From assembly GCA_010909165.1 (NCBI GenBank), contig MU008158.1, positions 2,071,478 through 2,135,477 on the forward strand: a stretch of 64,000 nucleotides of DNA, given 5' to 3'. Below the pieces are notes generated by a model. It ran no database searches and was not told the DNA's origin. It saw only the letters and a program-made list of their open reading frames with translations. Position 1 is the first letter of the stretch, and the number at the start of each line of letters is the position of its first letter. This stretch comes from Anthoceros angustus (taxonomy: Eukaryota > Plantae > Anthocerotophyta). Positions 6,566 through 57,832 of the stretch are shown here, one piece after another. Both the position numbers and the translations under genes were made by a program.

Positions 6566-6590
6566 GGTAGAGTAGAGTAGAGTAGAGTAG
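6566..6590 (+). repeat. (GTAGA)5 microsatellite in the 5' leader
   Basis: Direct read gtagagtagagtagagtagagtag. Confidence 0.9.
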
Positions 6591-6641
6591 GGAGGAGTAG
6601 GGGGTTAGGTGAGGACGCGGACGCGGACGAAGCTGGCAGCC

Positions 6642-21988: not shown

Positions 21989-22362
21989 GTCTCAATTCAA
22001 GACTTTAACAATATTGTAGTTGATATGTCCATTGCGAGACTGTCTCAATTCGAGACTTTTACACAACTGTAGTTGATACATCCATTTTCAATTCGAGGAA
22101 TTGAGATTTTACAGTAGTTGATACATCCATTTTCAATTCGAGGAATTGAGATTTTACAATACTGTAGTTGATACATCCATTTTCAATTCGAGGAATTGAG
22201 ATTTTACAATACTGTAGTTGATACATCCATTTTCAATTCGAGGAATTGAGATTTTACAATACTGTAGTTGATACATCCATTTTCAGTTCGAGAAGTTGAC
22301 ATATTCATTGTGAGACCGTCGCAATTCGAGACTTTTACACTACATTAGTTGATGTCTCCATT
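21989..22362. repeat. Minisatellite with 50-bp unit ACTGTAGTTGATACATCCATTTTCAATTCGAGGAATTGAGATTTTACAAT, about 7 units with degenerate outer copies
   Basis: 22161-22210 and 22211-22260 are identical; neighbouring units are truncated or diverged. Internal palindrome TCAATTC-GAG-GAATTGA. Confidence 0.9.
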
Positions 22363-30210: not shown

Positions 30211-32206
30211 TAATGTTTAGGCATATAATGACTATTTTGTTGCAGTTGACCTTGACTCCTGATAAGACACCAAACTCATGAACTGTATGAAGCACAGCGT
30301 CCACGGAACGATCTTCAACTTTTGAGAAAAGCAAAGAATCGTCTGCTAAACATGAGATTTGTAGTTCTTCCCCTCCTGGCCCTGTGATACTAGTGATGTC
30401 TCCATTATTCAAAATTTTCCACATAAGAAAATCTGTGATAATAGTGAAGAGGGTAGGGGCTAAGGGGCAGCCTTGTTGAACCAATCGGCTGATTTGAAAT
30501 CTGTCCGAAATATCTCCATTCACAGCTTGGCACCCACATCCTCGCAGATGATGGCAATCCACCTCCCGTTTTCCGAATCGGGTTCCCTGGAAGAGATGAT
30601 GCCATGGCCGGAAGGATGTGATGGAGAGGATGTAGACATGGGCGATGACATCCCGGACGGGAGGTGGACCGGAGATCCGATTTCACCCGGCCAAGTGGCA
30701 TGGCGATGCATCGCTCACAACCGGGGCCACATAGTGCAATGTAGGGAGAGACTGCGTGGTGATTGAGGACTGTGTTGAAGAAAGGACGGCGGCCCCTCCC
30801 ACAGTATGCCGGATGTGCCGCCCACCCGCATCCAAATGCGGCGGCCGAACGCGAATGCGCCATATCCCGCCATCAGCCATTGCCGAAACGTATTTAAGGC
30901 GGCGATGGCGCCTTCGCCATTCCCGGAGGCTCAAGAAAACCGCCAGCCATCTCCCTGCAGCGTGAAACTAATGCTCGAGCGCCGAGGCGTCTGTTTTCGA
31001 CATCCGCGAGGCCACGAGGTGAGTGCCGGGTGGAATCCTGACCACGCATTGCTGATGCAATGCATGCGATTCTAGAGAAGGCCATAGGGACATCGGATAG
31101 ACATGGAGGGGTTGATGGCAGCATTGGTTTGGTGTGTCAGGTTCGAGCCAGATGACTGCGTCGCAAATAGGAGAGTTTACCACTTGACTGACATCGCCTG
31201 CGCCCGCCTCCCCTCAAGCCAAGACATAGACCGTACTGATTCTGGGGCGATAGAGCCCGAGGACTTGCTGGAGACGCTGGTCCACAACCAACTGCTACCC
31301 CTTGAGGAGGAGTTATCTACGCTTAATGCACCATCACCGCCCACCGGGTGAGAGAGTGCCATGGCGCAGTGAGCGCTCTTGTGCGCAAGAGTTTGCGCCT
31401 CACCTAGAAGTGGCGCAAGAGGCCCAATGGCCGCAACTCCGCGACATGCTGACACATACTATACACTCAGCCCATCCAAACTCGTGAGGCTTTGACTGTA
31501 GAGAGGCGGACTGTGGTGAAGGTAAGATATGACGCCTCCCGCATTGCCTGACGCATGACCAAGGTGGAAGACCACATATACACTAGCCCTCTCAAGTGTA
31601 GGGATGAACGATTTTTTTTGTTTTAAGAGTGTTTGTATAGCAGAGTGCTTTGAGAATCACTGGTAAGGTCTTTTATACGAGAATGGTCCTTGGCCCTTGG
31701 GATAATAAATTTTTTTTTTTTGAACCTTAGGTTTTTCGACCCTGATAGGTAGGCTAGAGATAGAGTCCTGGGTTTTGGTGATTTTAGAAATAAGAAAGTG
31801 TCTATATATGTTAGGGATGCCTACACCGCCAGGGCGCAGCAAGCGGGAGGTAGCCGCCCACCACGGTCAAGAACGGACGCATGCACTGTGGGAGTTTACA
31901 ACCCTAGTGGCGGAGCCCGCCACAATGGAAAGAATCGAGAGACGACACACCCAAAGACCGCGAGGTCAAATTCCGTGGGCTGAGGCCGAGCGAGCCGCAG
32001 CAGCCGCGCGCAAACCGGGCGAGCCTGCTCACTGCAGTTGGACGAAGGCTACGCGACGGGCGGCGGGCGAGGAGAGAAATGCACAAGTAGCGGGAGGAAA
32101 AGAGACGCTGAGGCAAGAGCGCCAAGAACGCGGAGGAGACGCGCGAGGGTGGTGTCTTTCTCACTGGCAGGTGGAGGGTTCTTTCGGGAAACAAGAGAAA
32201 GAGAGA

Positions 32207-34180
32207 TGGCGCCGAGCCGCGCCGAAATTTCACTCATGCAAGGCCCAACATGGACCACGAAGGAGTGCAGCCCGTGCGTGAGCCGGGTCCGAATTTATGG
32301 AGAAGAAATGGTGTTACGACACCAAAGATTGGTGCAAGAGTGCGCAATTGAGAACCAAGTTGCAAGAGGGAGACGCGAGGAAGAGGCCGCAAACTGGATT
32401 TGGGACTCTTTCGAAAGCAGGCGGGCGAAGCATGTGAGGATGGAAGCTTGGTAATTGACCCCCGAGAAAGAAGACCCCGAGAGCCGCACCGCGCCATGAA
32501 GCCCGGGAAGTGAGAGTGAACAATGGATGGGTGACTCGCCAACTCGTGTCTGCACCGGTGGGATTAGCCAAGTGGATTTTGTGTTTCGCAGAATCAAGTT
32601 GGATCATATGGCACTACTCGGTTTCTTCATGAGGTGGTTAAAGGTACACAAATCGATTGGGGCGGATGATCTTTGAAAGAGCCTGGAGGAGAGGCGAATT
32701 TCTCCCTTCCCTCGGCCTCCTTGATTTCACCTTTTCTAATTCATGTGTTCGCGATTCCGTGTGTCTAACGAGTTGGAAGTCCGCCTTCATAGCCGGAAAC
32801 CGGCCAGGAACTCAAGGTAGAGGAGGAGGAGTGTAAGGAGATTCCGGAAGGATTCCAGTGGGAATGCGCCTCCTAGAAGAATGAAGGGGGAGGTTTCCAA
32901 GGGGCGGAAGCGAGGCGGACGGCCGAACGGGGTCACAAGAAGGGAAGGACAGCTGGGAAGAGGAACCCACAGCCACACCTAGGGTCACCAGTCGAAATCA
33001 GCAGGAACGAGTGAAGGAGGAGAAAATAAAGGGAACGACAAGTTGCCCCTCTCAGTGGGAGGAGCCGCTAGGAGAGATTGGAGCGGATGAGGAGTTGTGG
33101 CAAACCAACCCCTAGAAGAAGAGGGGTTAGTTCGATAGCCAAGTCCGCGACGGAGCTCGGAACATTTTGGCGACATTTCACCGACCCGCCGGGAAGTGGA
33201 GAGTGACACCGTCAGGCGAATTGTTGTGGAATGGGCACGGGCAGCCCAATTCGAATCAGCCTTGACTCGCCATGGCTGACAGCAGTGATCTCCCAGCGCC
33301 ATGGCTCTCACCGGCCGAGTGTGCAGGCCAGAAAAGTTGCTCAAGGAGAAGTTGGAGAGCCGAAGGCGAGAACAAGGTGGCAGGAGAGCAGACGGAATGC
33401 GAGCCCCTATGCAAGGCATGAGCTAAAGGCCATGTCCACCCAACAGAGGCCTTAGTAATCAGTCAAGGGGCGATGCTACAATTGAAGAGCTTCAAGATGA
33501 GGTCTCATGAGCCCAGAACAAATGGAAACAATGGCCTGAGAAATTCAAGAAGTCGAGAGAGAGAGAGAGATGAAGCTAGGGCCGAGTCAAGAGAGAGGTG
33601 GCCAAACCAAGAAGGCGAGCACACAAGAACCGCAGAGTCAAGCCACCACCGGGGAACTACCACCACGGTGGCTAAACCGCCACCGCCGTGGAAGGGAACC
33701 GAGGTGGGGAAGTCACCATGGAGCGCGCAGTGGATACGATCCCCGGAATCAAGGCGCCGCCTGTGGATTGTCCACGGAGGAGAGGGTAAGACCTCAGAAG
33801 AGCGATGACAGCTACGGCCCGGATGAGGATGCTCATGTCCTCGCCGTCGCATGGTGAGCGGTGCTCACTCTAAATGTGTATGTGGTTGTTGGGATGAGGG
33901 GCGTAAACCATTGGTCAGACATCTTGACCGCCACGCTACTGGTTCTTCCGAACGGAGCGGGCGCCATGTGGTGATCGAGGAAATGAGCGAGCAGCCGTGG
34001 CATGGAGGGAGGAGCACACGGTGGTGCCCAGGATGAGGAGAATAACAGTAGGGCCTATAGACAACGACGCCATGGAAGACGAAGAAACCGCAGGAGAGAG
34101 GTGGAGGTTTTGGGGAGAATCGCCGGATCGAGGCGCAGGAGAGCGAGAGGGAACCCCGTGCAGGCTAGGCAAAGAATCAT
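32207..34180 (+). pseudogene. Frameshifted ORF inside the LTR: conserved N-terminal domain, charged low-complexity region, coiled coil; second copy ~41083-43020
   Basis: ATG at 32207; NGWVT (32522), KLDHMA (32596), KGTQIDWG (32640), LISPFLIHVF (32721), then QEKLLKEKLE and ATIEELQDEVS coiled-coil-like segments in both LTR copies. Confidence 0.6.
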
Positions 34181-34602
34181 GACGCACTGATTTTAGGAGA
34201 GCGACATCATAGGCCGAGGCTTTTTGGGGTAGGGATAGGATGTTTTGAGGACCCGAGTCTGTAGTTTCTTAGATTGGTAGGGCGCCGGCTACAATTTTAG
34301 ACACCGGAGAAGTGAGTCAGGACCATGTAATGTATAAGAGACCCTGAGTCTCTCAATGTACATTTCGTGTGAACTTCCGTAAGGAATGCGCGAGGTTGAT
34401 TGGACGACGATCAAACTGCTCGCACCGCCTTCGTCACAAGAAGGCCGGAAGATCCTCGGATGGTCGAGAGCGGAGTGGCCAAGCCTGGGTGACGGCAGCG
34501 CCAAAAAGAGGTAGGAATTGAAGGCCGAGGCGGACCGCTGGCGATCGCACCGGTTCTTTTTTCCCGATCCTTCCCAACCGCCGCCACTGTGTGTTCATTC
34601 CA

Positions 34603-34660
34603 TCAAGGAGGGGTCTGTGTGGCCCAAGGAGGGGTCTGTGGCCCAAGGAGGGGTCCGTGC
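34603..34660 (+). repeat. Three ~19-21-bp tandem repeats CAAGGAGGGGTCTGTGGCC in the LTR (also ~43462-43515 and ~50920-50978)
   Basis: Direct read. Confidence 0.85.
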
Positions 34661-37600
34661 CCGTGAGGAAAGGGGAGAGAAGAAGAGAAATCAAGGGGTA
34701 GATGAGGTGAGGGAAGAGAGTGAGGGAATGAAGGGGAGTGGAAGCGTGGGAATCGCAAATTGTAAGTAGAGGGAGGTGTATAGGTGTCGCCCATAGCCCC
34801 AGGTCCGCAAGAGAGTGACAATAGACTCACAAGCGGCTGGTAGGGACCCGCCATTGGTCAACCGCCAGGTGGCCGAATCTACGTGGTGGGTTTGGGTGGA
34901 GAGGGTAGCGAGCGACGGGTAGGTCTAGAATCCATAGATTTAACACCTTGACAAACACCATTCCCTTGGGATCGAATCCTAGGACTATAACGACATAGAG
35001 GGTAAATGTGGCCTCTTGCGCCTTCGGATGCAAAACCCATTCCACATTTTGCGCTGTCGGGAATGAAACCACATCAAGGTTATAGGGGACTAACCATAGC
35101 TTAGGTGTCTAGTTTTGGAGTGTATCTAGTTAGGTAGATGGATGCCACGGGTTGAGATTCGAGTCAAGTCGACGGGCCACAAGAAGCGACAACGCCAAGC
35201 ACCGGAAAGGTTAAAAAGGGTTGCAAACCGCGAGTTGAGGAGGATCCAGAAGACGACCCGCTGGGAGAAGGGAAGCAACTGTGGGACGGGGTCCGATCTT
35301 GTTGGAGCAAGATCCCCAACCTCGACTTGGACGAGGTACCACCGCCAAGGAACCCTGACCAATTCCATCCATCGACCTCTTCCAAAAGTGTGCATCGCTG
35401 GAGATCAATCGACTCGCAGAACCGTTGTTGACCAACCACGAATCAAGAACGATAGTCATGACCACCACCATGCCGGTGGTCACCACCAAGCAACCTTATC
35501 CACTGTATGGAGAGGGGGGTATGAAGACCGATGAATTTGTTGAGCGCTTTTGACATTTGCAAAACCAGAAGCGGGAGATGCTCTATGGAGTTCTTGGGGT
35601 CCGGGGGGTATAGGCGAATACCTCAAGTCACACACCTCCAAAGAACCTATGAAGAGTTAAAACCGCCCGTGAGGTTCAGGGGCTTGACGAGGGATACGTG
35701 TTGTCCAAGCTTGAAAAGCCGCAGAGGAAAAGAAGGAAACCTTGCAGCGTGGAGAGGTTTGCCCACGCGATCAAGTGGCCCTCACTCGAGTTGCAGGTGC
35801 ACGGGTTCGCTAAAGGCCCGGGTTCTAAGATGGGGAGACACGAAGGTTACAAGCGGAGAAGAATTTGGGCAAGGCTATCAAGGGCGCTTAAACTATGAGG
35901 AATCCAACCGCAAGGGAGGAGGAAGGCTAAGAAGGAGAAGAAGAAGCCTGTGATCGAAAAGAGAAGGGATCCTCATCCTCCTAAGAAAGTTCATCGTGAA
36001 GAGAGCTCCATGTAAGATTCCATGAAAGTTCCTGAGGAGGAAACGAGTGATGGAGGAAGGCCATCGATGAGGAGCGCCAAATGGAAAAAGAAAATGAAGG
36101 GTCACGGACAACAAGGACACAAGGGCAAAACAGAGGCGTATGCGAAAAAGGACGGAACAAGAGGAGGGAGGCCGAGGTAGCCAAGAAAGTAGAACAACAG
36201 GAACAAGATGGAGGAGATGGCAAAATTCGAAATTCCATCTTAATGCGAAGGAACAGAGAAGGAGAGTCACGAACCCACGAGCCAACCTCTTCGCTCAACG
36301 TGGGCAGCAGGACACTCCAAAGCTAATTGTCCGAAACAAGGGTACACCGCCGATAGAGGAGGAAGAGGAAGATGGAGGATACATTCAGTGAGGTTAACCA
36401 AAAGTGTACCCAAGACCATGTACCCTCCAACTACGAAATTCCACGAGGGGTCAGAATCAAAGGGCGGTAATAAATCCAATGGGCACTTGTGCTACAACCG
36501 CAACCTTGACACTATGCGCACAATGCCTTATCCAACTCGGCCAAGGCAATGGAGATTAAACATGTCAAGATTGCAAGCAGGGCATTTGGCTGGATCGCCA
36601 AAACACGTGAAGAGGAGGATCGCGCACCAGGAACGGAGTTCAGGCCGGTCCGCCATGCATGTTGAGGACGCTGATTATGGGTATGGGAGGATGCCGAGAA
36701 GACCCGAGGAGCTTGAGAGGATTAGACCACGAAGTGATTATTATGGGGAAGCCCGCCATGGTCAAACAAGGAGCACAAAAGCAAGGAGAAGAGAGGGAAG
36801 GAAAAGAAGAAAGGAGGTGGATACGACCACGGATCGATGAGGGAGAGCGCCAAGCGAGGGAATACAAAATTTATAACCGCGAGGTGGAATGGACCAGAAA
36901 ACACAACGAACCAATGGGGCAGGAAGATGTGAGCGATACAGAGTGTTCCAATGGAAGAGTGCAAATTCAAAAGGAATCATGAATGACATTGAAGACACTT
37001 TAAGCTACCGAATTCGAAAGGTGAAAAGATGGGTTAGGATTTCAAGACGAAGAGGTTATGGATATGATCCAAGAGGAATCGAGAAGGCCAAGGTGGTCGA
37101 GGCGGGTGTCGATTTCCACCACCTGGGAGTCCGCCACCCCAAGGGAAGCCACCAGTCATGACGAATCAACCAACGAAACTCCATGCGAGGTGCCAACTTC
37201 AAGAGGCCATCATGGACCAACATTTCATGATCACATTCGACAACTCCTCCGAGACAATCCAGATAGGCAATGATCGAGGGCATTGAAGAGGCGCAACCCA
37301 AGAAGAAGCAACGCCTAAAGACCTGACCATGGTCCAACCCTATCATTTGACCATGGGATCAAGGAACCCAGATGTCATCAAAAGGAGTACCCTCGACACG
37401 TGTAATATCATGAGAAACGCTAAAATTGGGGTTGAAATTGATATACCAAGGTTTTTTGTATATACATGTCCGTAATGGTGCCGGGGAACTGACAGGTGCT
37501 AACGATCATTGGAACCATTCCCTACTTGGATTATGTAGTCATCCAAAGAAATCGCCGGTATAGCCTAATTGGTCGAACATGGATGTACGATCGCAATGCA

Positions 37601-40506
37601 CGCCAAATGGGGAAGAAAGGAAGTCGATTCAAACCAGGAATGGGATCCCAAGACCAAGGAGGTAGGATTTGCCTATCGGAGTAAGGACATGCAGTGAAAC
37701 CCCAACCAAACGAAGGTACACTGGGGAAACAGGAGATAAGAAGAGGAAGATAGGTTCCCGCACACATCTCACGAGGAGCAGGATTATCGCAGATATCCCA
37801 TACAATCAACCAGGTTACGGGTAACCATGGATCGCCGGAACTGGGGCGAAGGAGGGAACAGCAGGCAAACCGGATAAGGAGGAAGCGGTTACGCTTCACG
37901 CCGGAGGATTTGTTTAGAGGGGCATGAGAAGAGGAACCGCGGAGCCGAAGAAGGATCGTAGCACCGCACTGGTGGAGCGCGAGTGCGATGAAGTTAAGGA
38001 TGTTGAGGTTCTTCCGTGGAAAGGTGCTCAAATTCTCAAGAACAATGGATGCCGTGGAGGAAGGATGAAGCAACCGCTGCGTAATTCATCGGTCTTCGAC
38101 ATGAAGGGATCCCCAAAGAATGGAACATAGGATTGACTGGAACCGTGAGCAATCCCAGAAGGATTCCGCAAGTTAAGCAACCAAGTACTCAAGGTAAGGA
38201 TCGCTTGAGATGTCTCAAGGCGGATGTGATCTATCCTATAGTCAATACCGAATGGGTGGCTCCAATAGTGGTAGTACCTAAGAGGCAAACGGCCCGCCAG
38301 ATCGGAGGTTGAATAAGGTCACCAAGAAGGATCCGCTCTTCATCGATAATATCCTAGATCCGTCGCAGTGTGATGGCGATTCATTCTTAGATGGGTACTG
38401 GTATAATCACCGCACCTTAGGGAGAGCGACCTCACCGCTTTACAACCGACGACATACCGCTAAGCGACATTTGACCAGAGCCTTCTTTGCGAACCATTGT
38501 CAAGATTTCAAGGACTTTAGGGACTTTATGGAAGTTTTCGACGACACAGATCGCTAAGGACCATCCGTCGCACCTCCGAAGTGCCGAGTGGCAACCACGC
38601 AATTATGCCTCGCATCCGTAAAAGTGCTACTGCATGTCGAGGGAATTCGCTGGGCATCGAATTTCAAGCCGAGGTATAGAAGTAGATCCGACAAGGTAAA
38701 GGTCATCGCCACCCTTAGAGCACCTTCAACGCTAAAGGAACTCCGGGTTCCCGGAATGGTCGGTATTATAGACGCTTCCACCGCCGCGGCGCCCCACTAA
38801 CGAGCTTGTTAAGGAAGGATCAAGAGTGGGAATGGACGATGGAACGAGAAGCATTCCAGACCGCAGACGACATCGCTACCCACGCTAAGAGGCCGGATCG
38901 AGTAAGAAGTTCCACGTTTTCGCTGATGTTTCAAAGATTTGCAATTGGGTCCTTAGCCGGATGAGAAGAAGAAGGATTTTCCGATCTACTATGCCGAGAC
39001 AACTAACGGACGCGAACGAAAGTATACCACCACGGAGCGCCAAGCATCGGGAATGGTTTACTGGTCGAAATTCGACACTACCTCCTCGTATGAATTTGTG
39101 TTCCATGTTGACCACTTTGCCTTGAAACACCTTGTGAATAAACCCCGACCTTTCGGACGAGCAGCGCTGGATCACCGCCTGGAGTTTACTTCACAAGAGA
39201 AACGAGAGGGTAGGAAGCATATCAATGCCGACTTCATATCTCGATTAAACAGGAAGGTGGAAAAACCAGAAGATGATTTTCCGCGAGACATTGCGTCGAA
39301 AGCAAACCAAAGCGAAGCCGCTCAAGGAAGGTGGAGCCATCGATTGAGAAGGGAGGAGAGGTTCAAGACCAACATATCGAGATATGATTATCTTGGCACG
39401 GCCAAATTCCTCCACATCTTCCAAGACAAAAAGCGTCATTCACTACTCAAGACCACAACGGCACAATATGAACTTATACCGAGTAGGTCCCGGACGGTGG
39501 AGCGTTATGGGTACGCAAGCGGTAAGTCGAGCTCATTACACGAAGAAGAAGGGAGGCCATTATGCCGCATGTCACTTGCAGGTGAAAATTTTGAGGCGGC
39601 TATTGGTGGCCTACCATGTACAAGGATGCCAAGGAGTTCGTGAAGCGCCTACGTCAAAGGGTCGGCAAGCCAACGAACAACCCAATGGCCCCTTGTCCCC
39701 ATACTTGCACCGCACCATTCGAGAAATGGGGATCGATTTTGTCGGGCCCATCCACCCAAAACCAAGACCGCCAAAACCACATCTCGTCAGACATCAGACA
39801 CGGATGGTGGAGAAGCGCACGGTAGATTCGCAACGGGTGGCCGATTCTCGAGCAAATCATCACTAGATATGGCTGCCCATTGAGCCGGTCGCTGATGAGG
39901 AACACATTTCAATCGTGTAATCTAACATGACCCCACTTCAATGTCGATCATGTGACCACTCCCTTTATAACCCAAAAGCCAATGGGTCACAAAGGCAAAC
40001 GGCTTGTTGTGCAAGATCACCAACTCACCGCCTATGCATATGATCGATATGAAATCGACTGCACTTTGGGCATACCGACTGCTGAAAAGGTGACAACGCA
40101 GACCTAGATATCTTACATATGGACATCACCATGCCAATAGAGTTCAAGTTCCCACCTCGAGAATAGAACCAAGTCGAATGCCGGAGGAAAGCCAATTGGA
40201 AAGGTTGGTGATTTCAGACGACACACGAGACAGAGAACAAGCCTCCAAGTTATGCGGGATGTCCAGAAGGAAGGAAGGAGGATAAGAGATCAAGCGCCAA
40301 GAGTATGTTCCCGGGATCCGCTTTACTATATGATAACCGATACATGCATTTTCCGTAAATTACATTTAAGGTGGATGGGACCCTAGTTTTGAGGTTTTCG
40401 ACAACGGATCAATTCAACCGCAAGAATGGATCGCCCCGCCAACTAGAGTCAACGGTCAGTTAAAATATTAATAAGTTGGCGAGGACGCCAACAAATGAGA
40501 AGGGAG

Positions 40507-43500
40507 TATGGAAGACCACATATACCAGCCCTCAAGTGTGGGATGAACGATTTTTTTGTTTTGAGTGTTAGAATAGCAGAGTGCTTTGAGAATCGCCCGG
40601 TAAGGTCTTTTATAGAATGGTCCTTGGCCCTTGGGATAATAATTTGTTTTTTGAACCTTAGGTTTTCGAATGATAGGTAGGTAGATAGAGTCCTTGGGTT
40701 TTGGTGATTTTAGAAATAAAAAGTGTCTATATAGGATGCTCTACACTGCCACGGGCGTCAAGGGGAGGTAGGCTAGTTCCACCACTGGCCGGGACGCATG
40801 CACTGGGGAGTTTACAACCCTAGTGGCGCGACCGGGCCGGAGAATCGAGAGCACACCCAAAGACCGCGAGGTCGCAAATTCCGTGAGGAGCCGCAGAGCG
40901 GGCGATGCAACGCGCCGCGAGCCTGCCTGCTGCAGGGGACGACGAAGGCTGCCGGGCGAGGCCAAGGAAAAGAGAACCAGAAGTAGCGGCGGGAGACGCG
41001 AGGCAAGAGCGCAAGAACGAGAGGGACGCGCGAGGGTGGTGCCCCTTCTCACCAGGGGGAGTTTGCTTTTGGAAGAAGAGAGATGGCGCCGAGCGCCGAA
41101 ATTTCACTCACGCAAAGGCCCAACCATAAGTGGAAGGTGAGAGCTGCGGTGAGCCGGGTCTGGAATTTATGGAGATGACGACAGATTGGTGCAAGAGTGC
41201 GTGCAATTGAGAACCAAGTTGCAAGAGGGAGACGCGAGGAAGAGGCCGCAAAACTGGATTTGGGACTCTTTCGAGCAGAGGGCGAGAAGCATCGAGGATG
41301 GAAGCTTGGTAATCAATTTCAGAAAGAAGACCTTGAGAGCCGCAGCCGCGCATGAAGCCCGGGAAGTGAGAGGAATAATGGATGGGTGACTCGCTAACAA
41401 ATGTGGTGGATTAGCCAAATGGATTTTGTGTTTCCGCAACCCAAGTTGGATCATATGGCGGATCACTTGGTTTCTTCACGAGGTGGTTAAGGTACACAAA
41501 TCGATTGGGGCGGATGATCTTGAAAGAGCCTGTGGAGAGGGCTAATTTCCCTTCCTCCCTCCTTGATTTCACCTTTTCTAATTCATGTTCGATTCGTGTC
41601 TAACGGAGTTGAAGTCGGTCCGCCTCAGCCGGAAACCGGCGTGGAACTCAGAGGAGGAGGAGGAAGGAAGATTCGGAAGGATTCCAGTAGCAATGCGCCC
41701 TAGAAGATCTAAGAGGTGGGAGGTTTCAAGGGCAAGAAGCGAGGGCCGGCCGAACGGGTCTGAAGAAGGGAAGGAGCAGCAGAAGAGGAACCCACATACA
41801 CCTAGGGTCACCAGTCAAATCGGCAGCAGAACGCGAGTGAAGGAGGAGAAAATAAAGGGAAACGACAAGTTGTGCCCCTGTGCAGGAGTCGCCGCTAGGG
41901 AGATTGGAGCGGATGAGGAGGCAAACCAACCCCTAGAAGAAGAGGGTTAGTTAATAGCCAAGTCCGCGAGCTAACATTTTGGCGATTTCACAACACATCA
42001 AGTGGAGGCAGACACGAAGTAGAATTGTTGTGGAATGGGCAAGGGACAGCCCAATTGGGAATCAGTTGACTTCGCCATGGCTCGACGCAGCAGTGATCTC
42101 CTCGATCACCCATGGCTCTCACCGGCCGAGTGCAAGGCCAGGAAAAGTTGCTCAAGGAGAAGTTGGAGCCCGGAAGGCGAACAAGGTGGCAGGAGCGCAG
42201 ACGGAATGCGAGGCTATGCAAGGCACAGGAGCAAAGGCCATGTCCACCCAACAGAGGCCTTAGTAATCAGTCAAGGGGCGATGCCACAATCGAAGAGCTT
42301 CAAGATGAGGTCTCGCGAGCCTGTGAACAATGGAAACAATGGCGCCGAGAAATTCAAGAAGTCATGAGACAAGCGAGAGAGATGAAGCTAGGCCGGTCAA
42401 GAGAGAGGTGGCCAAACCAAGAAGGGCAGAGCACAAGAACCGCAGAGTCAAGCCACCACCGGGGGGAAACTACCACCACGGTGGCTAAACCGCCACCGTC
42501 ATGAAGGAGGAACCGAGGTGGGGAAGTCACCCAAGAGCGCCGCAGTGGAGGATGATCCCGAGAATCAAGGCAGCCCAGTGATTGTCCACGGGAGGAGAGG
42601 GTAAGAACCTCCGAGCAAGAGCGACAGTGCTACGGCCCGGATGAGGATGCTCATGTCCTCGGCCGCCGCATGGTGAGCGGTGCTCACCTTGTATGTGGTT
42701 GTTGGGACAGAGGGGCGTAAACCATTGGTCAGACATCTTGACCGCCACGCGCTACTGCTGGTTCTTCCGAGGAGCGGGGCCTACCCCAAGTGGTGATCGA
42801 GGAAATGAGCGGCAAGCTGTGGCGTGGAGGGAGGAGCACTGGTGGCTGTCCAAATGAGGAGCGGAATAATGCCATAGGGCCTATAGACAACGACGCCTGG
42901 AAGGCGCCAAGAAACTGCAGCAAGGAGAGGAGGTGGAGGTTGGGGAGAATCGCCGGATCGCAGGCGCAAGGTGAGAGCGAGAGTCCCCAGGCCGGGGCTA
43001 GGCAAAGAATCATGACGCGCAGCGATTTTAGAGCGCATCATAGGCCGAGGCTTTTGGGTAGGGATAGGATGTTTTGAGGACCCACCGTAGTTTCGAATTG
43101 GTAGGAGCGCCGTGGTAGTGGGCCAATTTTAGACCCAGAGAAGTGAGGACCACAACAATGTATAAGAGACCCTTGAGAGTCTCCCAATGCATTTCGTGTG
43201 AACTTCCGTTGAAGCTATGCGCGAGGTTGATTGGAGACGCCCGATCAAGATCAAACTGCTCGATGCACCGCCTTCACCACAAGAAGGCCGGAAGATCCTC
43301 GGATGGTCGAGAGCGAGTGGCCAAGCTCCACGCCTGGGTGAAAGGCGCGCCACGAAAAGAGGTAGGAATTGCCTGAAGGCCGAGGCGAACTGAAGGCGCG
43401 CCCAAGCACCCACCGGGTTTTCCCGATCCTTCCCAACCGCCGCCACGTGTGTTCATTCCACCAAGGAGGGGTCTGTGGCCCAAGGAGGGGTCTGGTGGCC

Positions 43501-43953
43501 CAAGGAGGGGTCTCTGCGGAGGTGAGGGAGAGTTCATTAAGAGAAAGGTTCCTAAGGGGTAGATGAGTGCGCTACTGAGGGATTGTGAGAGTGTGTGAGG
43601 GAAATCGAAATGCGTGGAGGAGGGAAGGCGGAATCGCAAATTCCTAGAGGTAGAGGGAGGTGTATAGGTGTCCGTATGCCCATAGCCCCAAGGTCCGCGC
43701 GAGAGAGGAAATAGACCGCGGCGGCGGATTGTAGGGACCCGCCACGGGTCAACCGCCACCTGGTGGCCGAATCTACCATGGTGGGTTTGGGTAAGGGGAG
43801 AGGTGGGTAGTGAGCGACGGGTAGGTCTAGAATCCATAGATTTAGAACACCTTGACACAAAACTATTCCCTTGGGATCGAATCCTAGGACTATAACGACA
43901 TAGAGGGTAAATGTGGCCTCTTTGCGTCTTCGGATGCAAAAACCCATTCCACA
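40507..43953 (+). repeat. 3' LTR (~3.45 kb) of the gypsy element
   Basis: Preceded by the PPT; starts TATGGAAGACC, ends TTCCACA. Confidence 0.85.
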
Positions 43954-45738: not shown

Positions 45739-48700
45739 GTGGACTACCTGATCTCCCGGGTAGGGAATGAGTTAGGTTGTTTTTCGTAGGTAGGAGTGCA
45801 AAATAAGGTGGAAAGGAAGAAATAAGTCTCGAACCACCCCACTATACTCCTACCGCACCGAGTAAGGACCCCGAGTAGGTGGAAGGGACTCGCACACCAG
45901 AGGAGGACCGGACAACGACCGAGTATTGGATAAGTCCGGCCACACCGCCGTAAGGCAGACGGATAAGCACGCCAAGCAAAGCAACTTAGAAGTTGGAGCG
46001 ACGTGATGCATCGGCCACGAGACTCGATCGACCGTGGATCCGGCATGCAGCCGGACTGTGCTGCAGTGGTTGCTGGGCACAAGTATAGGCGTGTATTCAC
46101 GCCCGACACGGTTCGGCGAATGAGGCTTAGGAGTACGCGCGTGAAGGACAACGAAGCGGAAGCGTAAGGTGAGAGAGGCTGCGTAATCCCTCAAGGCCAC
46201 GCGCTGGCGGACACCTTCGCCTGCCGGGATTTACTACTCCCGACGCCGCAACTCGAGGGAAGACCATTTCTTTTGCGACCGCATTGATTTTCAGCCTGCA
46301 GCCCGCCTATCCCGCCTCATTCGCTATCTCTCGAGTGCCGCCTTCTCGCCCACCGTGGCTGGAGCAAGCGAACGGGAGAAGAGGGAGACGCCAAGATTCG
46401 CCATCAGCAGCAGCTGAGCAAGAAGAAGGTGATGGGACCCAAGAAGGTCGGGAGGTGTGGGGAGCCCTGGCGCCTGTGGAGCGCAACATTATCACCCGAT
46501 ACCTAATTTCGACCTTGGGCCGAGGAGGCAGAGGACTTGGGAGAAGTGGCATCTCGACATCTTCGCCAAGGTGTGGATGCTTGTCAGCCACACCTCGCTG
46601 TGGAATATGTTAAAGATGCTGCCGCCAACAAGGAGGTCCGGTCCGCCTCCAAAAAGTTTGAGGGAGGAGGTGAGGTGGACCGTGAGGTCCCGAGGGCGAC
46701 AACCGCCCGTAAGAAATTGGGGCGAGTCCCGAGCCTCTCAAGGTGAGGGGAAAGGTAGAAGCCGGCGGCGGCGCTTATATTCAGGACGCAGCTGCCGCTG
46801 CAAACGGTCGATGCCGGACTGCCGATGTGACAGACGGGTGAGGGCAAGTACAAGGTCATTGTCCATTGACATGTTCACCAAGGTGGATCACCTTGGTGAT
46901 AATCTTTGGTGTTCCCGCACGCCCCAAACAAACGGCCGGACTGGGGCGATCATCCCGCCCCCGGACCACCAAGAGGCCAGAAGCCACGGAGCGAGAAGCT
47001 CACGCCTAAGTGTTGTCCCCTTCCTAATCCATGTGTGGGACACCTCAACCTCCCGGCGAGGGAGAAGAGGAGCGGCGCTCCGGAAAGGATTGGCGGCCTG
47101 GCCAAGGCGTGGGGTGAAGGCACACCCGAGGCGAGGTCCGACCTCCTAAGACCAAACGAGCCCGGAGGAAGATGGAATGGGAGGGAAATTGACTCCATCC
47201 GGCCGGAACGGACCCCCGCCGCCCGAGAGGTATGGAGGATATCCCCGCCTCCTTCCGTTCCCGGAGGCGGAGTTGCCCGCACCAAACGGAGCCCCCATGA
47301 GGGGGAGCCGACGCTATAACGCTCGCCACCAAGAATCCGCCATAAATAGCCGGATGACGCCTGGAAACGAAAGGTCAAGAGGGCTGGAAGGTGGCACCCA
47401 CCAACGGGCACCAAGTGAGCGCACAAGTGCCTCTACCCCACCCACAGTATGGGCAGGAGGCGGAGGAAGGGCCGTGAGAGCTGGAGAGACGCCTGTGGGC
47501 GGGGTCACTAGGCAATGTACATCCGAGCCCATCCTATCTCCGACGGGGAAACGCGCACCCCTCGCTACCAAGCCCAAACGAAGACGAAGCGGAGCTTAGC
47601 GGCCAAACGGGCTGGCGAGGTAAAAGGGCGGACCAGGCACCCAAGACCCGAGGGTCCCGATCGGTCCGAGAGCCGAGTCCCACTCACCCGGATCGCAGGC
47701 TCCGCGTCCCGACGGGACCGGGAGATGCCTGGCCTCCCGGATCTCAGTATCTCTCCGGCAATGAAGAAACACACGAAGTTTTGGCCACCGCCATGGACAG
47801 ATTGTTTTGGGGTCTCAAGGGACAGAGAAGACCCAGAGGTGGAGGCAACAAGGAGGCGATGGTGCTCCTCCAGAGCAGTGTGAGGTGGCCCAGAGGCGAA
47901 GAAGGCGAATCCTCGCCGAATCGAGGAGGGAAAACGCTGTGAAGGGGAGGGGAGTCCTATTCAAAGAAGACCGATTAGTCCTTCACCAGCGCGAATAACA
48001 ACCAGCATGGGGAGGCCCAAGCTCGGCAGTAAGACCTCTCGCAGCGACGTGGGCGCGCAGGGGAGTTGGAGGAAGCCCGAGAGCAAAGTGAGCTGAGCTG
48101 GCCGAGGCGGCTAGGGCAGAACAACGCCTGCCGCAGAGGCTCAGTGAAGGGCGCGGTGAGGCGGGTTGCCTAAGACCGACCGAGATCACTATCGGGCGGA
48201 TCGCAAACCTGGGTGAGGGAGACGGGCAGATGTTCATGCCAACCTAAAGGCGAATGAGGCAGCAGAAAGGTGCACGAGCCAAGAGAAGGCGAGGCCAAGA
48301 ATAAGGAGATAGGAGGATCTCCGGCTCAAATATGGGGAGGAACAATCAGGAGATGGAAGACCAGGAGACCTTGAGCTACAGCCCAAGATGCAATCGAGCG
48401 GGCGGCCGGGCCGACCGGATTACGAGCCGGGAGATAGAGCGACCCACCGTCATGCGTAAGAGGGCATGGCACCATGAGCATACCGTCACGAAATGGAGAG
48501 GACGACAAGCGCCGAACGGGCAGAGCCGCCGACCACCGGGGGAGATGGCGAGCTTCAGCCAAATGAATCGAGAGCATACCTGGACGGGTAAAAGAAGGCC
48601 ATCTACCGGTCCGGGCTTGAGGAAGGAAGGCCACACCGGCAGTGAAAGCTGAACTAAACGACGAGCCTGAGTAAAGTGAGCAAGAACGAAGGTTGCAGAA

Positions 48701-50291
48701 GATTGTGACCTCATGAGATTCGCCTCGGCCCACCGACAAACCCGGCAGGAGAGACGACCAAAGAAGTTTTACAAAGACGCCCGCCCGAGCACCTGCGGCT
48801 AAGGGAGATCGTGCCCGGCCATGTGGAGGAGGCAATCCAACAAATCGACTGGATTTGCCTACTACTACCACGCCGAGCCAAGCGCGTTGAAGCTTCGGCC
48901 CTGTAACCGGACCTGACCCCAAGGCTCGGGAGGGAGGGAAGGGAAGAAGGGCATGGGGTGGGGCGTACCGGGCCTTGGTGGCCTGTTTTGGTGAGGGCGC
49001 AGTGAAGAGGAGCCCCTGTGAGGAGCAAGGTGACACACAATGTAACGGACCTCGAGGTAAGTCCGCTGCAACCAGCTGTGGGGATAAGGATGAGGGCCCC
49101 AAAGAGGTGGGGAGAAACCAACCGACCCAAGCCGTGGAAGGACCCTGAGCGAGGACCCGGCCCCCAACAAAGAGGGCGGTCCGGGACTGGGGTCCGGACT
49201 TGAGGACCGACTGCCCGGTCGACCTTGAGGTCCGAACCTGTGAGGGCTAGACGGGACCGAGGTCCGGACTGGAAATAAGACCGACTCAAGATCGGACCCC
49301 GAGTCGAGACCGACCCCGAGGTCCGGACTCGAGAAGGGAGTCGCCCCACGCGCTCAGGAGGAGCCGCCAACCGGTGGCTTTGGCATGGACCCACCAAGGA
49401 CGGAGAAGAGGATGTGGTGGTTACCGCGGTCCGACCGCCGCAGAGCTCCAACCCATCGATGGTGGTACTCCGGAAGGGAAGGGGTCCCACCGCGATCATC
49501 CGATTGGGTGCGCCGCAACAATCGTGGCAAGGAGTGGGGGCCATCGGTGCCGAGGCGGAACCAAGGGCATCCCCAGCCCGTCACGACAGGGAGATAGGGG
49601 AGGGGCGAAGATGGTAGGCGTCGATTAGGGCACACCGAGGCCACCCTGCAATAGGAGGTAATAAAGGCGCCCGACCTTAAGGAGTATAAGAGAGCCGAGG
49701 TCGCCTAGTAAAGCATCTTTCTTGGTGTTGATGCCGCTTTTTCTTGCAGGTGCCCTTGTGCGGCCTTCTTGCTAGCGTGAGTCCCGAGTCATCGAGCATG
49801 CACGATGCCCGAGAGATCAACAAGGTCCCGGTGACCCTAACGGTGGTGTGGTGTGTGTGGAAGAGCGATCAGGACCCTTGCTCGCTCCAGCCGCCTGGCT
49901 TGACGAATGAATGCGGAGCCTGAGGAACTGAGGGTGTAGTCTTGGACCAGAGGGCCCCGTGAGCGACGAGGAGGTCCGACTGCACACCCAAGCTTTCAAG
50001 GACGATGAGTGTAGTGAGAGGGTGGTGAGAGGAACGGACTAGAGGAACGAGGACGAACTTGAATGATATGGACGCTAACGGGTCCTTAAACGCTTGGCCA
50101 CGCCGAGCCTTAGGTGAACGTTACGGGTAGTTAGTCGAAACGATGAATGTGTGTTGAGTCTCGAACTAAGCATCGCGTGAGGTGAGAAACAATTGAACGC
50201 GGGCAAACCGAGCCTATCATTCTCTTGGGAACGGAATTCTTACTACAACGACACGGGATTGTGCGCGCTGATCGCCGAAAGTCTCGCCACA
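45739..50291 (+). mobile_element. Solo LTR (~4.55 kb), copy within the first duplication unit
   Basis: ATAAG at 45734-45738 and 50292-50296; ends (T)GTGGAC...CGCCACA. Confidence 0.75.
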
Positions 50292-53261: not shown

Positions 53262-56200
53262 TGTGGACCACGGATCCTCCCCGGGGGTAGGGAATGAGTT
53301 AGGTTTTGTTTTTTTTCGTAGGTAGGGAGTGCAAAATAAGGTGGAAAGGAAGAAATAAGCCCCGAACCATCCTGGACTATACTCCGGACGCACTCGAGTA
53401 AGGACCCTGAGTAGGGAAGGACTCAAGCACACTCGGGAGGAGGACCTGACAACGACCGAGTATTGGATAAGTCCGGCCACACCGCCGTAAGGCAGACGGA
53501 TAAGCACGCCAAGCAAAGCAACTTAGAAGTTGGAGCGACGTGATGCATCGGCCACGAGACTCGATCGACCGTGGATCCGGCATGCAGCCGGACTGTGCTG
53601 CAGTGGTTGCTGGGCACAAGTATAGGCGTGTATTCACGCCCGACACGGTTCGGCGAATGAGGCTTAGGAGTACGCGCGTGAAGGACAACGAAGCGGAAGC
53701 GTAAGGTGAGAGAGGCTGCGTAATCCCTCAAGGCCACGCGCTGGCGGACACCTTCGCCTGCCGGGATTTACTACTCCCGACGCCGCAACTCGAGGGAAGA
53801 CCATTTCTTTTGCGACCGCATTGATTTTCAGCCTGCAGCCCGCCTATCCCGCCTCATTCGCTATCTCTCGAGTGCCGCCTTCTCGCCCACCGTGGCTGGA
53901 GCAAGCGAACGGGAGAAGAGGGAGACGCCAAGATTCGCCATCAGCAGCAGCTGAGCAAGAAGAAGGTGATGGGACCCAAGAAGGTCGGGAGGTGTGGGGA
54001 GCCCTGGCGCCTGTGGAGCGCAACATTATCACCCGATACCTAATTTCGACCTTGGGCCGAGGAGGCAGAGGACTTGGGAGAAGTGGCATCTCGACATCTT
54101 CGCCAAGGTGTGGATGCTTGTCAGCCACACCTCGCTGTGGAATATGTTAAAGATGCTGCCGCCAACAAGGAGGTCCGGTCCGCCTCCAAAAAGTTTGAGG
54201 GAGGAGGTGAGGTGGACCGTGAGGTCCCGAGGGCGACAACCGCCCGTAAGAAATTGGGGCGAGTCCCGAGCCTCTCAAGGTGAGGGAAAGGTAGAAGCCG
54301 GCGGCGGCGCTTATATTCAGGACGCAGCTGCCGCTGCAAACGGTCGATGCCGGACTGCCGATGTGACAGACGGGTGAGGGCAAGTACAAGGTCATTGTCC
54401 ATTGACATGTTCACCAAGGTGGATCACCTTGGTGATAATCTTTGGTGTTCCCGCACGCCCCAAACAAACGGCCGGACTGGGGCGATCATCCCGCCCCCGG
54501 ACCACCAAGAGGCCAGAAGCCACGGAGCGAGAAGCTCACGCCTAAGTGTTGTCCCCTTCCTAATCCATGTGTGGGGACACCTCAACCTCCCGGCGAGGGA
54601 GAAGAGGAGCGGCGCTCCGGAAAGGATTGGCGGCCTGGCCAAGGCGTGGGGTGAAGGCACACCCGAGGCGAGGTCCGACCTCCTAAGACCAAACGAGCCC
54701 GGAGGAAGATGGAATGGGAGGGAAATTGACTCCATCCGGCCGGAACGGACCCCCCGCCGCCCGAGAGGTATGGAGGATATCCCCGCCTCCTTCCGTTCCC
54801 GGAGGCGGAGTTGCCCGCACCAAACGGAGCCCCCATGAGGGGGAGCCGACGCTATAACGCTCGCCACCAAGAATCCGCCATAAATAGCCGGATGACGCCT
54901 GGAAACGAAAGGTCAAGAGGGCTGGAAGGTGGCACCCACCAACGGGCACCAAGTGAGCGCACAAGTGCCTCTACCCCACCCACAGTATGGGCAGGAGGCG
55001 GAGGAAGGGCCGTGAGAGCTGGAGAGACGCCTGTGGGCGGGGTCACTAGGCAATGTACATCCGAGCCCATCCTATCTCCGACGGGGAAACGCGCACCCCT
55101 CGCTACCAAGCCCAAAACGAAGACGAAGCGGAGCTTAGCGGCCAAACGGGCTGGCGAGGTAAAAGGGCGGACCAGGCACCCAAGACCCGAGGGTCCCGAT
55201 CGGTCCGAGAGCCGAGTCCCACTCACCCGGATCGCAGGCTCCGCGTCCCGACGGGACCGGGAGATGCCTGGCCTCCCGGATCTCAGTATCTCTCCGGCAA
55301 TGAAGAAACACACGAAGTTTTGGCCACCGCCATGGACAGATTGTTTTGGGGTCTCAAGGGACAGAGAAGACCCAGAGGTGGAGGCAACAAGGAGGCGATG
55401 GTGCTCCTCCAGAGCAGTGTGAGGTGGCCCAGAGGCGAAGAAGGCGAATCCTCGCCGAATCGAGGAGGGAAAACGCTGTGAAGGGGAGGGGAGTCCTATT
55501 CAAGAAGACCGATTAGTCCTTCACCAGCGCGAATAACAACCAGCATGGGGAGGCCCAAGCTCGGCAGTAAGACCTCTCGCAGCGACGTGGGCGCGCAGGG
55601 GAGTTGGAGGAAGCCCGAGAGCAAAGTGAGCTGAGCTGGCCGAGGCGGCTAGGGCAGAACAACGCCTGCCGCAGAGGCTCAGTGAAGGGCGCGGTGAGGC
55701 GGGTTGCCTAAGACCGACCGAGATCACTATCGGGCGGATCGCAACCTGGGTGAGGGAGACGGGCAGATGTTCATGCCAACCTAAAGGCGAATGAGGCAGC
55801 AGAAAGGTGCACGAGCCAAGAGAAGGCGAGGCCAAGAATAAGGAGATAGGAGGATCTCCGGCTCAAATATGGGAGGAACAATCAGGAGATGGAAGACCAG
55901 GAGACCTTGAGCTACAGCCCAAGATGCAATCGAGCGGGCGGCCGGGCCGACCGGATTACGAGCCGGGAGATAGAGCGACCCACCGTCATGCGTAAGAGGG
56001 CATGGCACCATGAGCATACCGTCACGAAATGGAGAGGACGACAAGCGCCGAACGGGCAGAGCCGCCGACCACCGGGGGAGATGGCGAGCTTCAGCCAAAT
56101 GAATCGAGAGCATACCTGGACGGGTAAAAGAAGGCCATCTACCGGTCCGGGCTTGAGGAAGGAAGGCCACACCGGCAGTGAAAGCTGAACTAAACGACGA

Positions 56201-57832
56201 GCCTGAGTAAAGTGAGCAAGAACGAAGGTTGCAGAAGATTGTGACCTCATGAGATTCGCCTCGGCCCACCGACAAACCCGGCAGGAGAGACGACCAAAGA
56301 AGTTTTACAAAGACGCCCGCCCGAGCACCTGCGGCTAAGGGAGATCGTGCCCGGCCATGTGGAGGAGGCAATCCAACAAATCGACTGGATTTTGCCTACT
56401 ACTACCACGCCGAGCCAAGCGCGTTGAAGCTTCGGCCCTGTAACCGGACCTGACCCCAAGGCTCGGGAGGGAGGGAAGGGAAGAAGGGCATGGGGTGGGG
56501 CGTACCGGGGCCTTGGTGGCCTGTTTGGTGAGGGCGCAGTGAAGAGGAGCCCCTGTGAGGAGCAAGGTGACACACAATGTAACGGACCTCGAGGTAAGTC
56601 CGCTGCAACCAGCTGTGGGGATAAGGATGAGGGCCCCAAAGAGGTGGGGAGAAACCAACCGACCCAAGCCGTGGAAGGACCCTGAGCGAGGACCCGGCCC
56701 CCAACAAAGAGGGCGGTCCGGACTGGGGTCCGGACTTGAGGACCGACTGCCCGGTCGACCTTGAGGTCCGAACCTGTGAGGGCTAGACGGGACCGAGGTC
56801 CGGACTGGAAATAAGACCGACTCAAGATCGGACCCCGAGTCGAGACCGACCCGAGGTCCGGACTCGAGAAGGGAGTCGCCCCACGCGCTCAGGAGGAGCC
56901 GCCAACCGGTGGCTTTGGCATGGACCCACCAAGGACGGAGAAGAGGATGTGGTGGTTACCGCGGTCCGACCGCCGCAGAGCTCCAACCCATCGATGGTGG
57001 TACTCCGGAAGGGAAGGGGTCCCACCGCGATCATCCGATTGGGTGCGCCGCAACAATCGTGGCAAGGAGTGGGGCCATCGGTGCCGAGGCGGAACCAAGG
57101 GCATCCCCAGCCCGTCACGACAGGGAGATAGGGGAGGGGCGAAGATGGTAGGCGTCGATTAGGGCACACCGAGGCCACCCTGCAATAGGAGGTAATAAAG
57201 GCGCCGACCTTAAGGAGTATAAGAGAGCCGAGGTCGCCTAGTAAAGCATCTTTCTTGGTGTTGATGCCGCTTTTCTTGCAGGTGCCCTTGTGCGGCCTTC
57301 TTGCTAGCGTGAGTCCCGAGTCATCGAGCATGCACGATGCCCGAGAGATCAACAAGGTCCCGGTGACCCTAACGGTGGTGTGGTGTGTGTGGAAGAGCGA
57401 TCAGGACCCTTGCTCGCTCCAGCCGCCTGGCTTGACGAATGAATGCGGAGCCTGAGGAACTGAGGGTGTAGTCTTGGACCAGAGGGCCCCGTGAGCGACG
57501 AGGAGGTCCGACTGCACACCCAAGCTTTCAAGGACGATGAGTGTAGTGAGAGGGTGGTGAGAGGAACGGACTAGAGGAACGAGGACGAACTTGAATGATA
57601 TGGACGCGAACGGGTCCTTAAACGTTTGGCCACGTCGAGCCTTAGGTGAACGTTACGGGTAGTTAGTCGAAACGATGAATGTGTGTTGAGTCTCGAACTA
57701 AGCATCGCGTGAGGTGAGAAACAATTGAACGCGGGCAAAACCGAGCCTATCATTCTCTTGGGAACGGACCCCTTACTACAACGACACGGGATTGTGCGCG
57801 CCCGACTGGCCGTCAGCGAAAGTCTCGCCACA
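53262..57832 (+). mobile_element. Solo LTR (4571 bp) of a second gypsy-like family, carrying an internal frameshifted ORF
   Basis: TGTGG...CCACA termini; perfect 5-bp TSD ATAAG at 53257-53261 and 57833-57837, inserted in the LINE KAY|D codons. No internal direct repeats or gag/pol. Its 5' end resembles the gypsy LTR start. Confidence 0.8.

What the first reader, a model, noticed from the sequence alone, without database searches (positions are those of the whole stretch)
31563..57832. Giant LTRs that carry their own gene: a homologous ORF inside the LTRs of two different retrotransposon families
Seen: the gypsy LTRs (~3.5 kb, bounded by PPT, PBS and TGTGGAA/TTCCACA ends) contain a + strand coding remnant with NG..KLDHMA..IDWG..ISPFLIHVF (32522/32596/32655/32730; repeated at ~41440-41590). 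The distinct 4.6-kb TSD-flanked TG..CA element has NG..KVDHLG..PDWG..VVPFLIHVW (46803/46880/46939/47018; duplicate ~54340-54575) with almost the same spacing (KxDH to DW is 59 nt in both). Both ORFs continue into charged low-complexity and coiled-coil-like sequence, although the two families do not visibly align as DNA. Established: extra ORFs of plant Athila/Tat/Ogre elements usually sit in the internal UTRs; ORFs within LTRs are best known from retroviruses (MMTV sag, HIV nef overlap). Inference: a lineage of elements encodes an accessory protein (possibly a plant-mobile-domain-like anti-silencing or chromatin factor) within U3. It would be present twice per provirus and survive in every solo LTR, so solo LTRs could supply the factor in trans.
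Basis: partly seen in the sequence, partly recalled or inferred. Interest (0 to 1): 0.8.

Follow-up and report, generated by a model that had tools for sequence, protein, structure and literature searches.

The report
Accessory gene moved into retrotransposon LTRs
Two jumping-gene families in a plant genome have very long end-repeats (3.5 and 4.6 kb) holding error-broken traces of what is likely one shared accessory protein gene, which a related element likely keeps outside its repeats, so the gene likely moved into the repeat, would stay behind in lone leftover repeats, and possibly helps the element resist host silencing.

Summary
The architecture is real. A Ty3/gypsy element (31563-43953) has 3.5-kb LTRs, with the purine tract about 25 nt after the pol stop. 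A 4.55-kb TG..CA unit (45739-50291) with a 5-bp target duplication inside a LINE gene is best read as a solo LTR. Its 'duplicate' is most likely an assembly artefact, and the stretch is noisy long-read sequence, so no continuous ORF can be read. Homology between the families is likely but statistically modest: 0 of 40 shuffles against the 3' LTR, 3 of 40 against the 5' LTR, not significant by ordinary alignment. A related element from a metagenome (L006) has ~420-bp LTRs and a decayed long ORF in its internal 3' region, whose domain maps onto the same LTR stretch (0 of 800 shuffles against the solo; weak against the gypsy LTRs). Best reading: the 3' accessory gene entered U3 by a shift of the plus-strand priming site. 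Fold, function and expression from solo LTRs are untested. The scan reported this layout before on other DNA (liverwort-like and fungal genomes; unchecked notes).

The parts
31563..35046 (+). 5' LTR of the Ty3/gypsy element (3,484 bp)
   Evidence: Aligns end to end with 40507-43953; ends in CA and is followed by a PBS-like tract
31817..34200 (+). Likely coding body of U3 in the 5' LTR; limits approximate, frame broken
   Evidence: Stop triplets observed/expected 0.84 on + and 1.37 on -, like gag-pol (0.78 / 1.06); the LTR 3' part shows the reverse. An intergenic control gave 0.81 / 0.99
32206..32765 (+).
   Evidence: a profile of L006 plus solo lands on 32516-32767, 2 of 150 shuffles as high
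34333..34340 (+). TATA-like octamer, candidate LTR promoter; also at 43161, 49685, 57218
   Evidence: Shared word found; 4 of 6 window matches lie in these LTRs, 0.77 expected (motif chosen after seeing the data)
35047..35065 (+). PBS-like tract
   Evidence: Position next to the LTR end; tRNA type not tested
35047..40506 (+). Internal region: gag-pol remnant in the order RT, RNase H, integrase; pol ends about 40471
   Evidence: Translation; RT_RNaseH E 0.002; RT, RH and INT of L003, L005, L006 align at z 7-25
40497..40506 (+). Polypurine tract, about 25 nt after the pol stop
40507..43953 (+). 3' LTR (3,447 bp)
41083..41600 (+). Putative conserved domain in the 3' LTR
   Evidence: Top chain against the solo, 0 of 40 shuffles in three settings
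45739..50291 (+). Solo LTR of a second family (4,553 bp), TG..CA, 5-bp target duplication, inserted in a LINE RT gene
   Evidence: the LINE frame reads on across the empty site; no repeat between its two ends; short DNA likeness to the gypsy LTR about 80 nt from the 3' end (E 0.16)
46490..47040 (+).
   Evidence: the L006 domain aligns colinearly at 46500-46907, 0 of 800 shuffles
53262..57832 (+). Second copy of the solo LTR, inside a 7.5-kb tandem duplicate that is most likely an assembly artefact

Best explanation
These are true giant LTRs of plant non-chromovirus Ty3/gypsy elements, and their U3 parts likely carry the accessory gene that a related element likely keeps between pol and a short 3' LTR, so that the gene would be copied to both ends and left in solo LTRs, where its protein possibly counters host silencing. 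Shown: the LTR limits, the purine tract about 25 nt after the pol stop, the solo unit with its target duplication, and a short-LTR relative with a decayed long internal ORF. Inferred, step 1: the traces in the two LTR families and in that internal ORF are homologous (about 0.75). Step 2: an ancestor began to prime plus-strand synthesis at a purine tract right behind pol, which by the normal reverse-transcription cycle turns the whole old 3' region into U3 and copies it to the 5' end (follows from established retroelement biology; the direction of change is inferred). Step 3: the frame breaks are mostly sequencing errors, so many copies may be open (about 0.6). Step 4: the gene is read mainly from the 3' LTR of full elements by a spliced or internally started message. 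Step 5: the product is a nuclear factor of the plant-mobile-domain / Athila extra-ORF / VANC-like group that shields the family from silencing (about 0.4; rests on analogy only).
For: LTR limits and purine tract. Solo unit with a 5-bp duplication in a LINE RT whose frame continues across the empty site. No short repeat at the two ends of any unit. Error-rich sequence: the last 700 nt of the two gypsy LTRs are 75.6% alike, the same as two reads of one locus (74.7%). Coding-like stop asymmetry in U3. Motif chain between families. Same strand and similar offset from the LTR start (first motif at about 960 and 1,060 nt). L006, found through RT, has ~420-bp LTRs (5351-5771, 15234-15655) with PBS- and PPT-like flanks and a decayed ORF of roughly 900 codons before its 3' LTR. 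Literature: extra ORFs of plant elements are described in the internal region (PMC7264820, PMC6317226); an Athila extra ORF matches PF20167 (PMC11728184); VANC is structurally related to the PMD protein MAIN (PMC13547354); PMD-A is encoded by Gypsy elements (PMC5418596).
Against: No continuous ORF. tblastn and frameshift alignment between families are not significant; the 5' LTR chain is no higher than 7 of 14 real-sequence nulls, and its reverse-strand control scores higher. The L006-solo score depends on the frameshift penalty (0, 9 and 6 of 150 shuffles at three settings), and 2 of 28 unrelated tile-strands reach z of 3 or more. L006 alone against the gypsy LTRs gives z -0.3 and 1.5; the profile against the 3' LTR gives 21 of 150; whole-domain alignments give 10, 26 and 15 of 100. 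A whole-window scan with plain BLOSUM scores was below its shuffled null. No Pfam, PDB, Atlas or protein-library match for any LTR piece or for the L006 domain. One element and one solo LTR only; no genome held.
Confidence: 0.6

Rival explanations
1. The LTRs did swallow an old accessory gene, but it is now a dead passenger: the long U3 is decayed coding DNA kept only because LTRs are copied whole.
For: The best-polished stretch (solo core) still changes frame between every motif, in both copies alike. Stop asymmetry fades along the solo (0.75, 0.90, 0.96 on +). L006's own ORF is decayed.
Against: Both solo copies likely stem from one polishing, and their 14 listed indels all sit beside an identical base. 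The pol gene, which must have been open at insertion, is broken just as often, and the two gypsy LTRs differ no more than two reads of one locus.
Confidence: 0.2
2. The LTRs are long and non-coding, like Ogre LTRs, and the shared motifs are chance matches between GC-rich, purine-rich translations.
For: not significant; real-sequence nulls reach similar chain scores; unrelated tiles reach z 3-4. LTRs of up to about 5-6.5 kb are known in plant non-chromoviruses (PMC6317226, PMC6431247).
Against: Independent comparisons (solo with each gypsy LTR, L006 with solo, profile with 5' LTR) land on the same pre-named stretch, strand and order; U3 shows pol-like stop asymmetry.
Confidence: 0.15
3. The true LTR is a short terminal part, and the ORF belongs to a 3' internal region repeated by tandem elements or by misassembly.
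For: The window does hold a false-looking 7.5-kb tandem duplicate, and L006 has exactly the short-LTR layout.
Against: The two long units have different, canonical neighbours (host flank then PBS and gag; pol and purine tract then host flank). No short repeat joins the two ends of a unit. A whole 4.55-kb unit stands alone between target duplications.
Confidence: 0.05

Closest known systems
Sense 3' extra ORFs ('env-like', Athila ORF-1 PF03078, PF20167) of Athila and other OTA Ty3/gypsy elements (PMC6317226 passages and section 9; PMC7264820 parts 1-2 of 3; PMC11728184 passages)
   Same: A sense-strand extra ORF downstream of pol in a non-chromovirus-type element without an added RNase H; very long LTRs occur in this group.
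   Different: There the ORF lies between pol and the 3' LTR. Here the purine tract follows pol directly and the remnant lies in U3. No Pfam match to these families was obtained.
Short-LTR relative L006 (metagenome contig; AT-rich, moss-like by my recollection of such sequences)
   Same: Related RT and RNase H, same RH-to-integrase spacing, and a long decayed ORF after pol with a globular-looking domain followed by charged and coiled-coil-like sequence.
   Different: LTRs of ~420 bp and the ORF internal; homology to the window's LTR domain is only modestly supported.
MMTV sag (PMC4667437, passages)
   Same: An accessory gene mostly inside U3, present at both ends and kept in solo LTRs (490 of 527 sag contigs in that paper lacked other viral genes).
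   Different: A vertebrate betaretrovirus and a superantigen; no sequence relation is claimed. Only the layout is alike.
Plant mobile domain proteins (MAIN/MAIL1; Gypsy-borne PMD-A) and the VANC anti-silencing factors of VANDAL transposons (PMC5418596, PMC13547354; passages)
   Same: Transposon-borne accessory proteins tied to silencing; the functional model used here.
   Different: No sequence or fold match shown for the window's ORF. VANC belongs to DNA transposons, and PMD ORFs were not described inside LTRs in the passages read.

Membership tests
Ty3/gypsy LTR retrotransposon | LTR-PBS-gag-pol-PPT-LTR with order RT, RNase H, integrase | tested here: met
Ty3/gypsy LTR retrotransposon | 4-5 bp target site duplication | tested here: inconclusive
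   3 of 5 bases match for the full element in noisy sequence; exact for the solo
Solo LTR (45739-50291) | TG..CA ends, 5-bp duplication, no internal terminal repeat, no gag-pol | tested here: met
   the TG is complete only in the second copy. The parent element was not seen
Athila (REXdb non-chromovirus/OTA/Athila) | RT/RH/INT phylogeny inside the Athila clade | not tested
   No tree built. The window's pol scores well against both L005 (Athila-type by my recollection) and L003, slightly higher against L003
Athila (REXdb non-chromovirus/OTA/Athila) | No additional (archaeal-type) RNase H | tested here: met
   RH-to-integrase spacing 614 nt against about 605 in L006; no room after integrase; judged by spacing, not by a profile
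Athila (REXdb non-chromovirus/OTA/Athila) | Extra ORF and long non-coding part between pol and the 3' LTR (typical, PMC6317226) | tested here: not met
   About 25 nt between pol stop and purine tract
Athila (REXdb non-chromovirus/OTA/Athila) | PBS type | tested here: inconclusive
   The tract resembles a tRNA-Asp site by my recollection only; sequence noisy
Tat / Ogre / Retand | Additional RNase H domain in pol | tested here: not met
   By spacing; Tat Z1/Z2 lack it too (PMC10508981, part 1 of 3), so those two lineages are not excluded
Phygy / Selgy | Short elements whose polyprotein fills nearly the whole internal part | tested here: inconclusive
   Internal part fits, the total of 12.4 kb does not; phylogeny not tested
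PMD (PF10536) / PF20167 / PF03078 / VANC group | Profile match | tested here: inconclusive
   No hit in 11 LTR-derived or other window pieces that could bear it (one search scanned 16 pieces, another 16) nor for the L006 domain; power is low on broken frames
PMD (PF10536) / PF20167 / PF03078 / VANC group | Fold match | tested here: inconclusive
   Single-sequence models pTM 0.24 and 0.21; the one fold search gave no match at E 0.001
PMD (PF10536) / PF20167 / PF03078 / VANC group | Nuclear, binds or de-silences its own element | not testable with these tools
   Needs experiments

The most novel reading that the evidence does not exclude
A lineage of bryophyte Ty3/gypsy elements has turned its LTR into a self-contained gene for an anti-silencing protein, so that the solo LTRs left by the host's own clean-up recombination keep making the factor and protect the remaining full elements in trans.
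Probability: 0.2. Interest if true: 0.85.

Novelty: new variant of a known kind. Interest (0 to 1): 0.5.

Why it matters
LTRs are treated as non-coding, and solo-LTR formation as the way plants disarm retrotransposons. If an accessory gene sits in U3, its dose doubles per insertion and survives that removal, as for MMTV sag. The pair of layouts seen here (internal ORF with short LTR in L006, ORF in a giant LTR in the window) suggests that one shift of the priming site can explain giant LTRs, and gives a direct test of what plant extra ORFs do. I found no description of this layout for plant elements in the searches run (0 papers; listings only). The library lacks most subscription journals, and I did not read Steinbauerova et al. 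2011, the main survey of extra ORFs, nor any supplements.

Tried and rejected
No whole genome is held. No sequencing run was listed, which is no evidence on expression. Protein searches were blank: three word-index searches with pol pieces, the full-library phmmer with the solo frame, two Atlas look-ups (none; only 0.80 hits), PDB sequences, Pfam on LTR pieces. Locus scans with LTR pieces found nothing (viral 31, 32; metagenome 34); viral scans with RT or L006 pieces found nothing. L001 is a chance hit in a giant-virus gene. L007 is a bacterial contig, not examined further and taken as chance. Two fragment alignments were unusable. A lenient frameshift alignment ran in the linear phase and was discarded. 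An amino-acid-composition coding test had no power (pol control z at most 2.1). Both structure models were unusable; only one was fold-searched. Exact look-ups found only 2 of 20 L006 pieces, neither in the domain, and the one host protein tried was absent. Rfam gave no match in 30000-60000. The bacterial promoter scan is irrelevant to this host. Rejected: the second solo copy as independent evidence; dating or dN/dS from the two gypsy LTRs (differences equal read noise); a DNA transposon for the 4.55-kb unit (inverted ends of only 5 bases; LTR-like TATA and 3' words shared with the gypsy LTR).
Full report
Setting. The window is plant-like DNA: well-polished genes in 1-16000 (a 927-codon open frame) and a nest of mobile elements in about 25000-60000. 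The host is likely a hornwort; this rests on an earlier unchecked note on this genome and on my impression of the genes, and was not tested. No whole genome is held.

Architecture. Self-comparison gives two long repeats: 31565-35046 with 40509-43953, and 43196-50666 with 50670-58210. The first is an LTR pair. The 5' copy starts at 31563, ends in CA at 35046 and is followed by a PBS-like tract; the 3' copy follows a purine tract at 40497-40506 and ends in CA at 43953. Between them lie gag and pol remnants in gypsy order, confirmed by related RT, RNase H and integrase sequences at z 7-25. Pol stops at about 40471, some 25 nt before the purine tract, so there is no internal 3' region. The second unit, 45739-50291, has TG..CA ends (the TG complete in its second copy) and an exact 5-bp duplication. 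It sits in a LINE RT gene whose frame continues across the empty site. Neither unit has a short repeat shared by its two ends. Both types carry the same TATA-like octamer 605-792 nt from the 3' end (chosen after seeing the data) and a weakly similar word near the 3' end (E 0.16).

Sequence quality. The 7.5-kb tandem duplicate has no substitution in sixteen 250-nt core bins but only 67-83% identity in its left flank; the 14 core indels listed all sit next to an identical base (which crashed at the alignment end). This is the pattern of one locus laid twice from noisy long reads, so the second solo copy adds nothing. The last 700 nt of the two gypsy LTRs are 75.6% alike, and two reads of the same LTR 74.7%: the LTR differences are within read noise, the element may be young, and no age or dN/dS can be taken here.

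The coding remnant. Stop triplets in the gypsy U3 body are depleted on + and enriched on - (0.84 / 1.37 and 0.88 / 1.31), like gag-pol (0.78 / 1.06) and unlike the LTR 3' parts; the first 1.5 kb of the solo body gives 0.75 / 1.08; an intergenic control gave 0.81 / 0.99, so this is mild evidence. A composition-based coding test lacked power. Between families, tblastn and frameshift-tolerant alignment (6 of 6 comparisons) were not significant. Of 14 real-sequence nulls, 1 reached the 3' LTR score and 7 the 5' LTR score in setting 1. Settings were varied after seeing results. Homology is likely, not proven.

An outside relative. An RT piece found 5 loci among 596 pattern matches in about half of the metagenome collection. 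L006 is a whole decayed element with ~420-bp LTRs, PBS- and PPT-like flanks, and, between a truncated pol and the 3' LTR, a broken ORF of roughly 900 codons: a globular-looking domain, a charged stretch and a coiled-coil-like part. With composition-adjusted, frameshift-tolerant scoring its domain aligns colinearly to 46500-46907 of the solo: 0 of 800 shuffles, Gumbel p 0.0017, but 9 and 6 of 150 at harder penalties, and 2 of 28 unrelated tile-strands reach z of 3 or more. A profile of L006 plus solo lands on 32516-32767 (2 of 150) and 41131-41605 (21 of 150); the reverse test gives 7 of 150; whole-domain alignments give 10, 26 and 15 of 100. Plain BLOSUM scoring over the whole window was not significant. 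The other four loci do not reach a comparable 3' region or, for L005, showed no match there by tblastx.

Mechanism. The plus-strand primer fixes the left edge of U3, and U3 of the 3' end is copied to the 5' end in each cycle (established knowledge). Priming at a purine tract just behind pol would therefore move a 3' accessory gene into both LTRs in one step, and recombination would leave it in solo LTRs. The two layouts are shown; the direction is inferred. Both LTR types have a T-rich tract ending in AG near the 5' end (31612-31627 and 31710-31730; 45780-45789), which fits a splice acceptor for a message from the 5' LTR promoter; a solo LTR could not make that message. The gypsy LTR also starts with 250 nt of 38% GC and a TATA-like run at 31803 before an ATG at 31817, which could be a promoter of its own. 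Neither is tested. For the protein I commit to an anti-silencing factor of the PMD / Athila extra-ORF / VANC-like group at about 0.4. The basis is analogy: Athila 3' ORFs match PF20167 (PMC11728184, passages), Gypsy elements encode PMD-A (PMC5418596, passages), VANC is structurally related to MAIN (PMC13547354, passages), and the L006 domain resembles PF20167-type proteins by my recollection only. Pfam was blank and both models were unusable.

Known systems. Reviews place plant extra ORFs in the internal region (PMC7264820, parts 1-2 of 3; PMC6317226, passages and section 9), and treat giant LTRs as non-coding (PMC6431247, passages). MMTV sag is the precedent for a U3 gene kept in solo LTRs (PMC4667437, passages). 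PMC10508981 (part 1 of 3), PMC13468544 (passages) and PMC10714607 (passages) added nothing on LTR-borne ORFs. Searches for the layout in plants gave 0 papers or unrelated listings. No supplements were read; those of PMC6317226 list extra ORFs and may bear on novelty. Earlier notes of this scan report the same layout in liverwort-like and fungal genomes, two or three with a VANC-like predicted fold; I could not confirm that fold here.

Verdict. A real giant-LTR architecture with a likely, modestly supported accessory gene in U3, and a short-LTR relative that suggests how it got there. Intactness, fold, function and expression from solo LTRs are open. New variant of a known kind; interest 0.5.

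Noticed in passing
window about 30550-31562 plus 43954-45600 (+); second read 51446-53100: The gypsy element sits in another plus-strand insert, itself inside the LINE RT gene. That insert holds a HECT ubiquitin-ligase C-terminal remnant (PF00632, E 3.5e-5, about 52536-52670). Class of the insert unknown.
   Followed up: partly
window 57833-59600 (-), 45600-45733 (-), about 30053-30550 (-): One LINE (endonuclease and RT) split by the solo LTR and by the nested insert.
   Followed up: partly
window 43196-58210: 7.5-kb tandem duplicate with a polished core and noisy flanks, most likely one locus laid twice.
   Followed up: yes
window 13092-15875 (+): A single open frame of 927 codons that looks like a glycoside hydrolase family 31 gene without introns (label recalled); exact sequence not in the protein collection with the start I chose.
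   Followed up: no
window 22047-22299, 26835-26961, 16993-17124: Tandem arrays with periods 50, 49 and 42.
   Followed up: no
window 34604-34655, 43461-43513, 50919-50969: A short 17-20 nt tandem repeat downstream of the TATA-like octamer in the gypsy LTR.
   Followed up: no
L006 16560-18160 and 19096-19339: AT-rich 15/180-nt and 35-nt tandem arrays beside the element.
   Followed up: no
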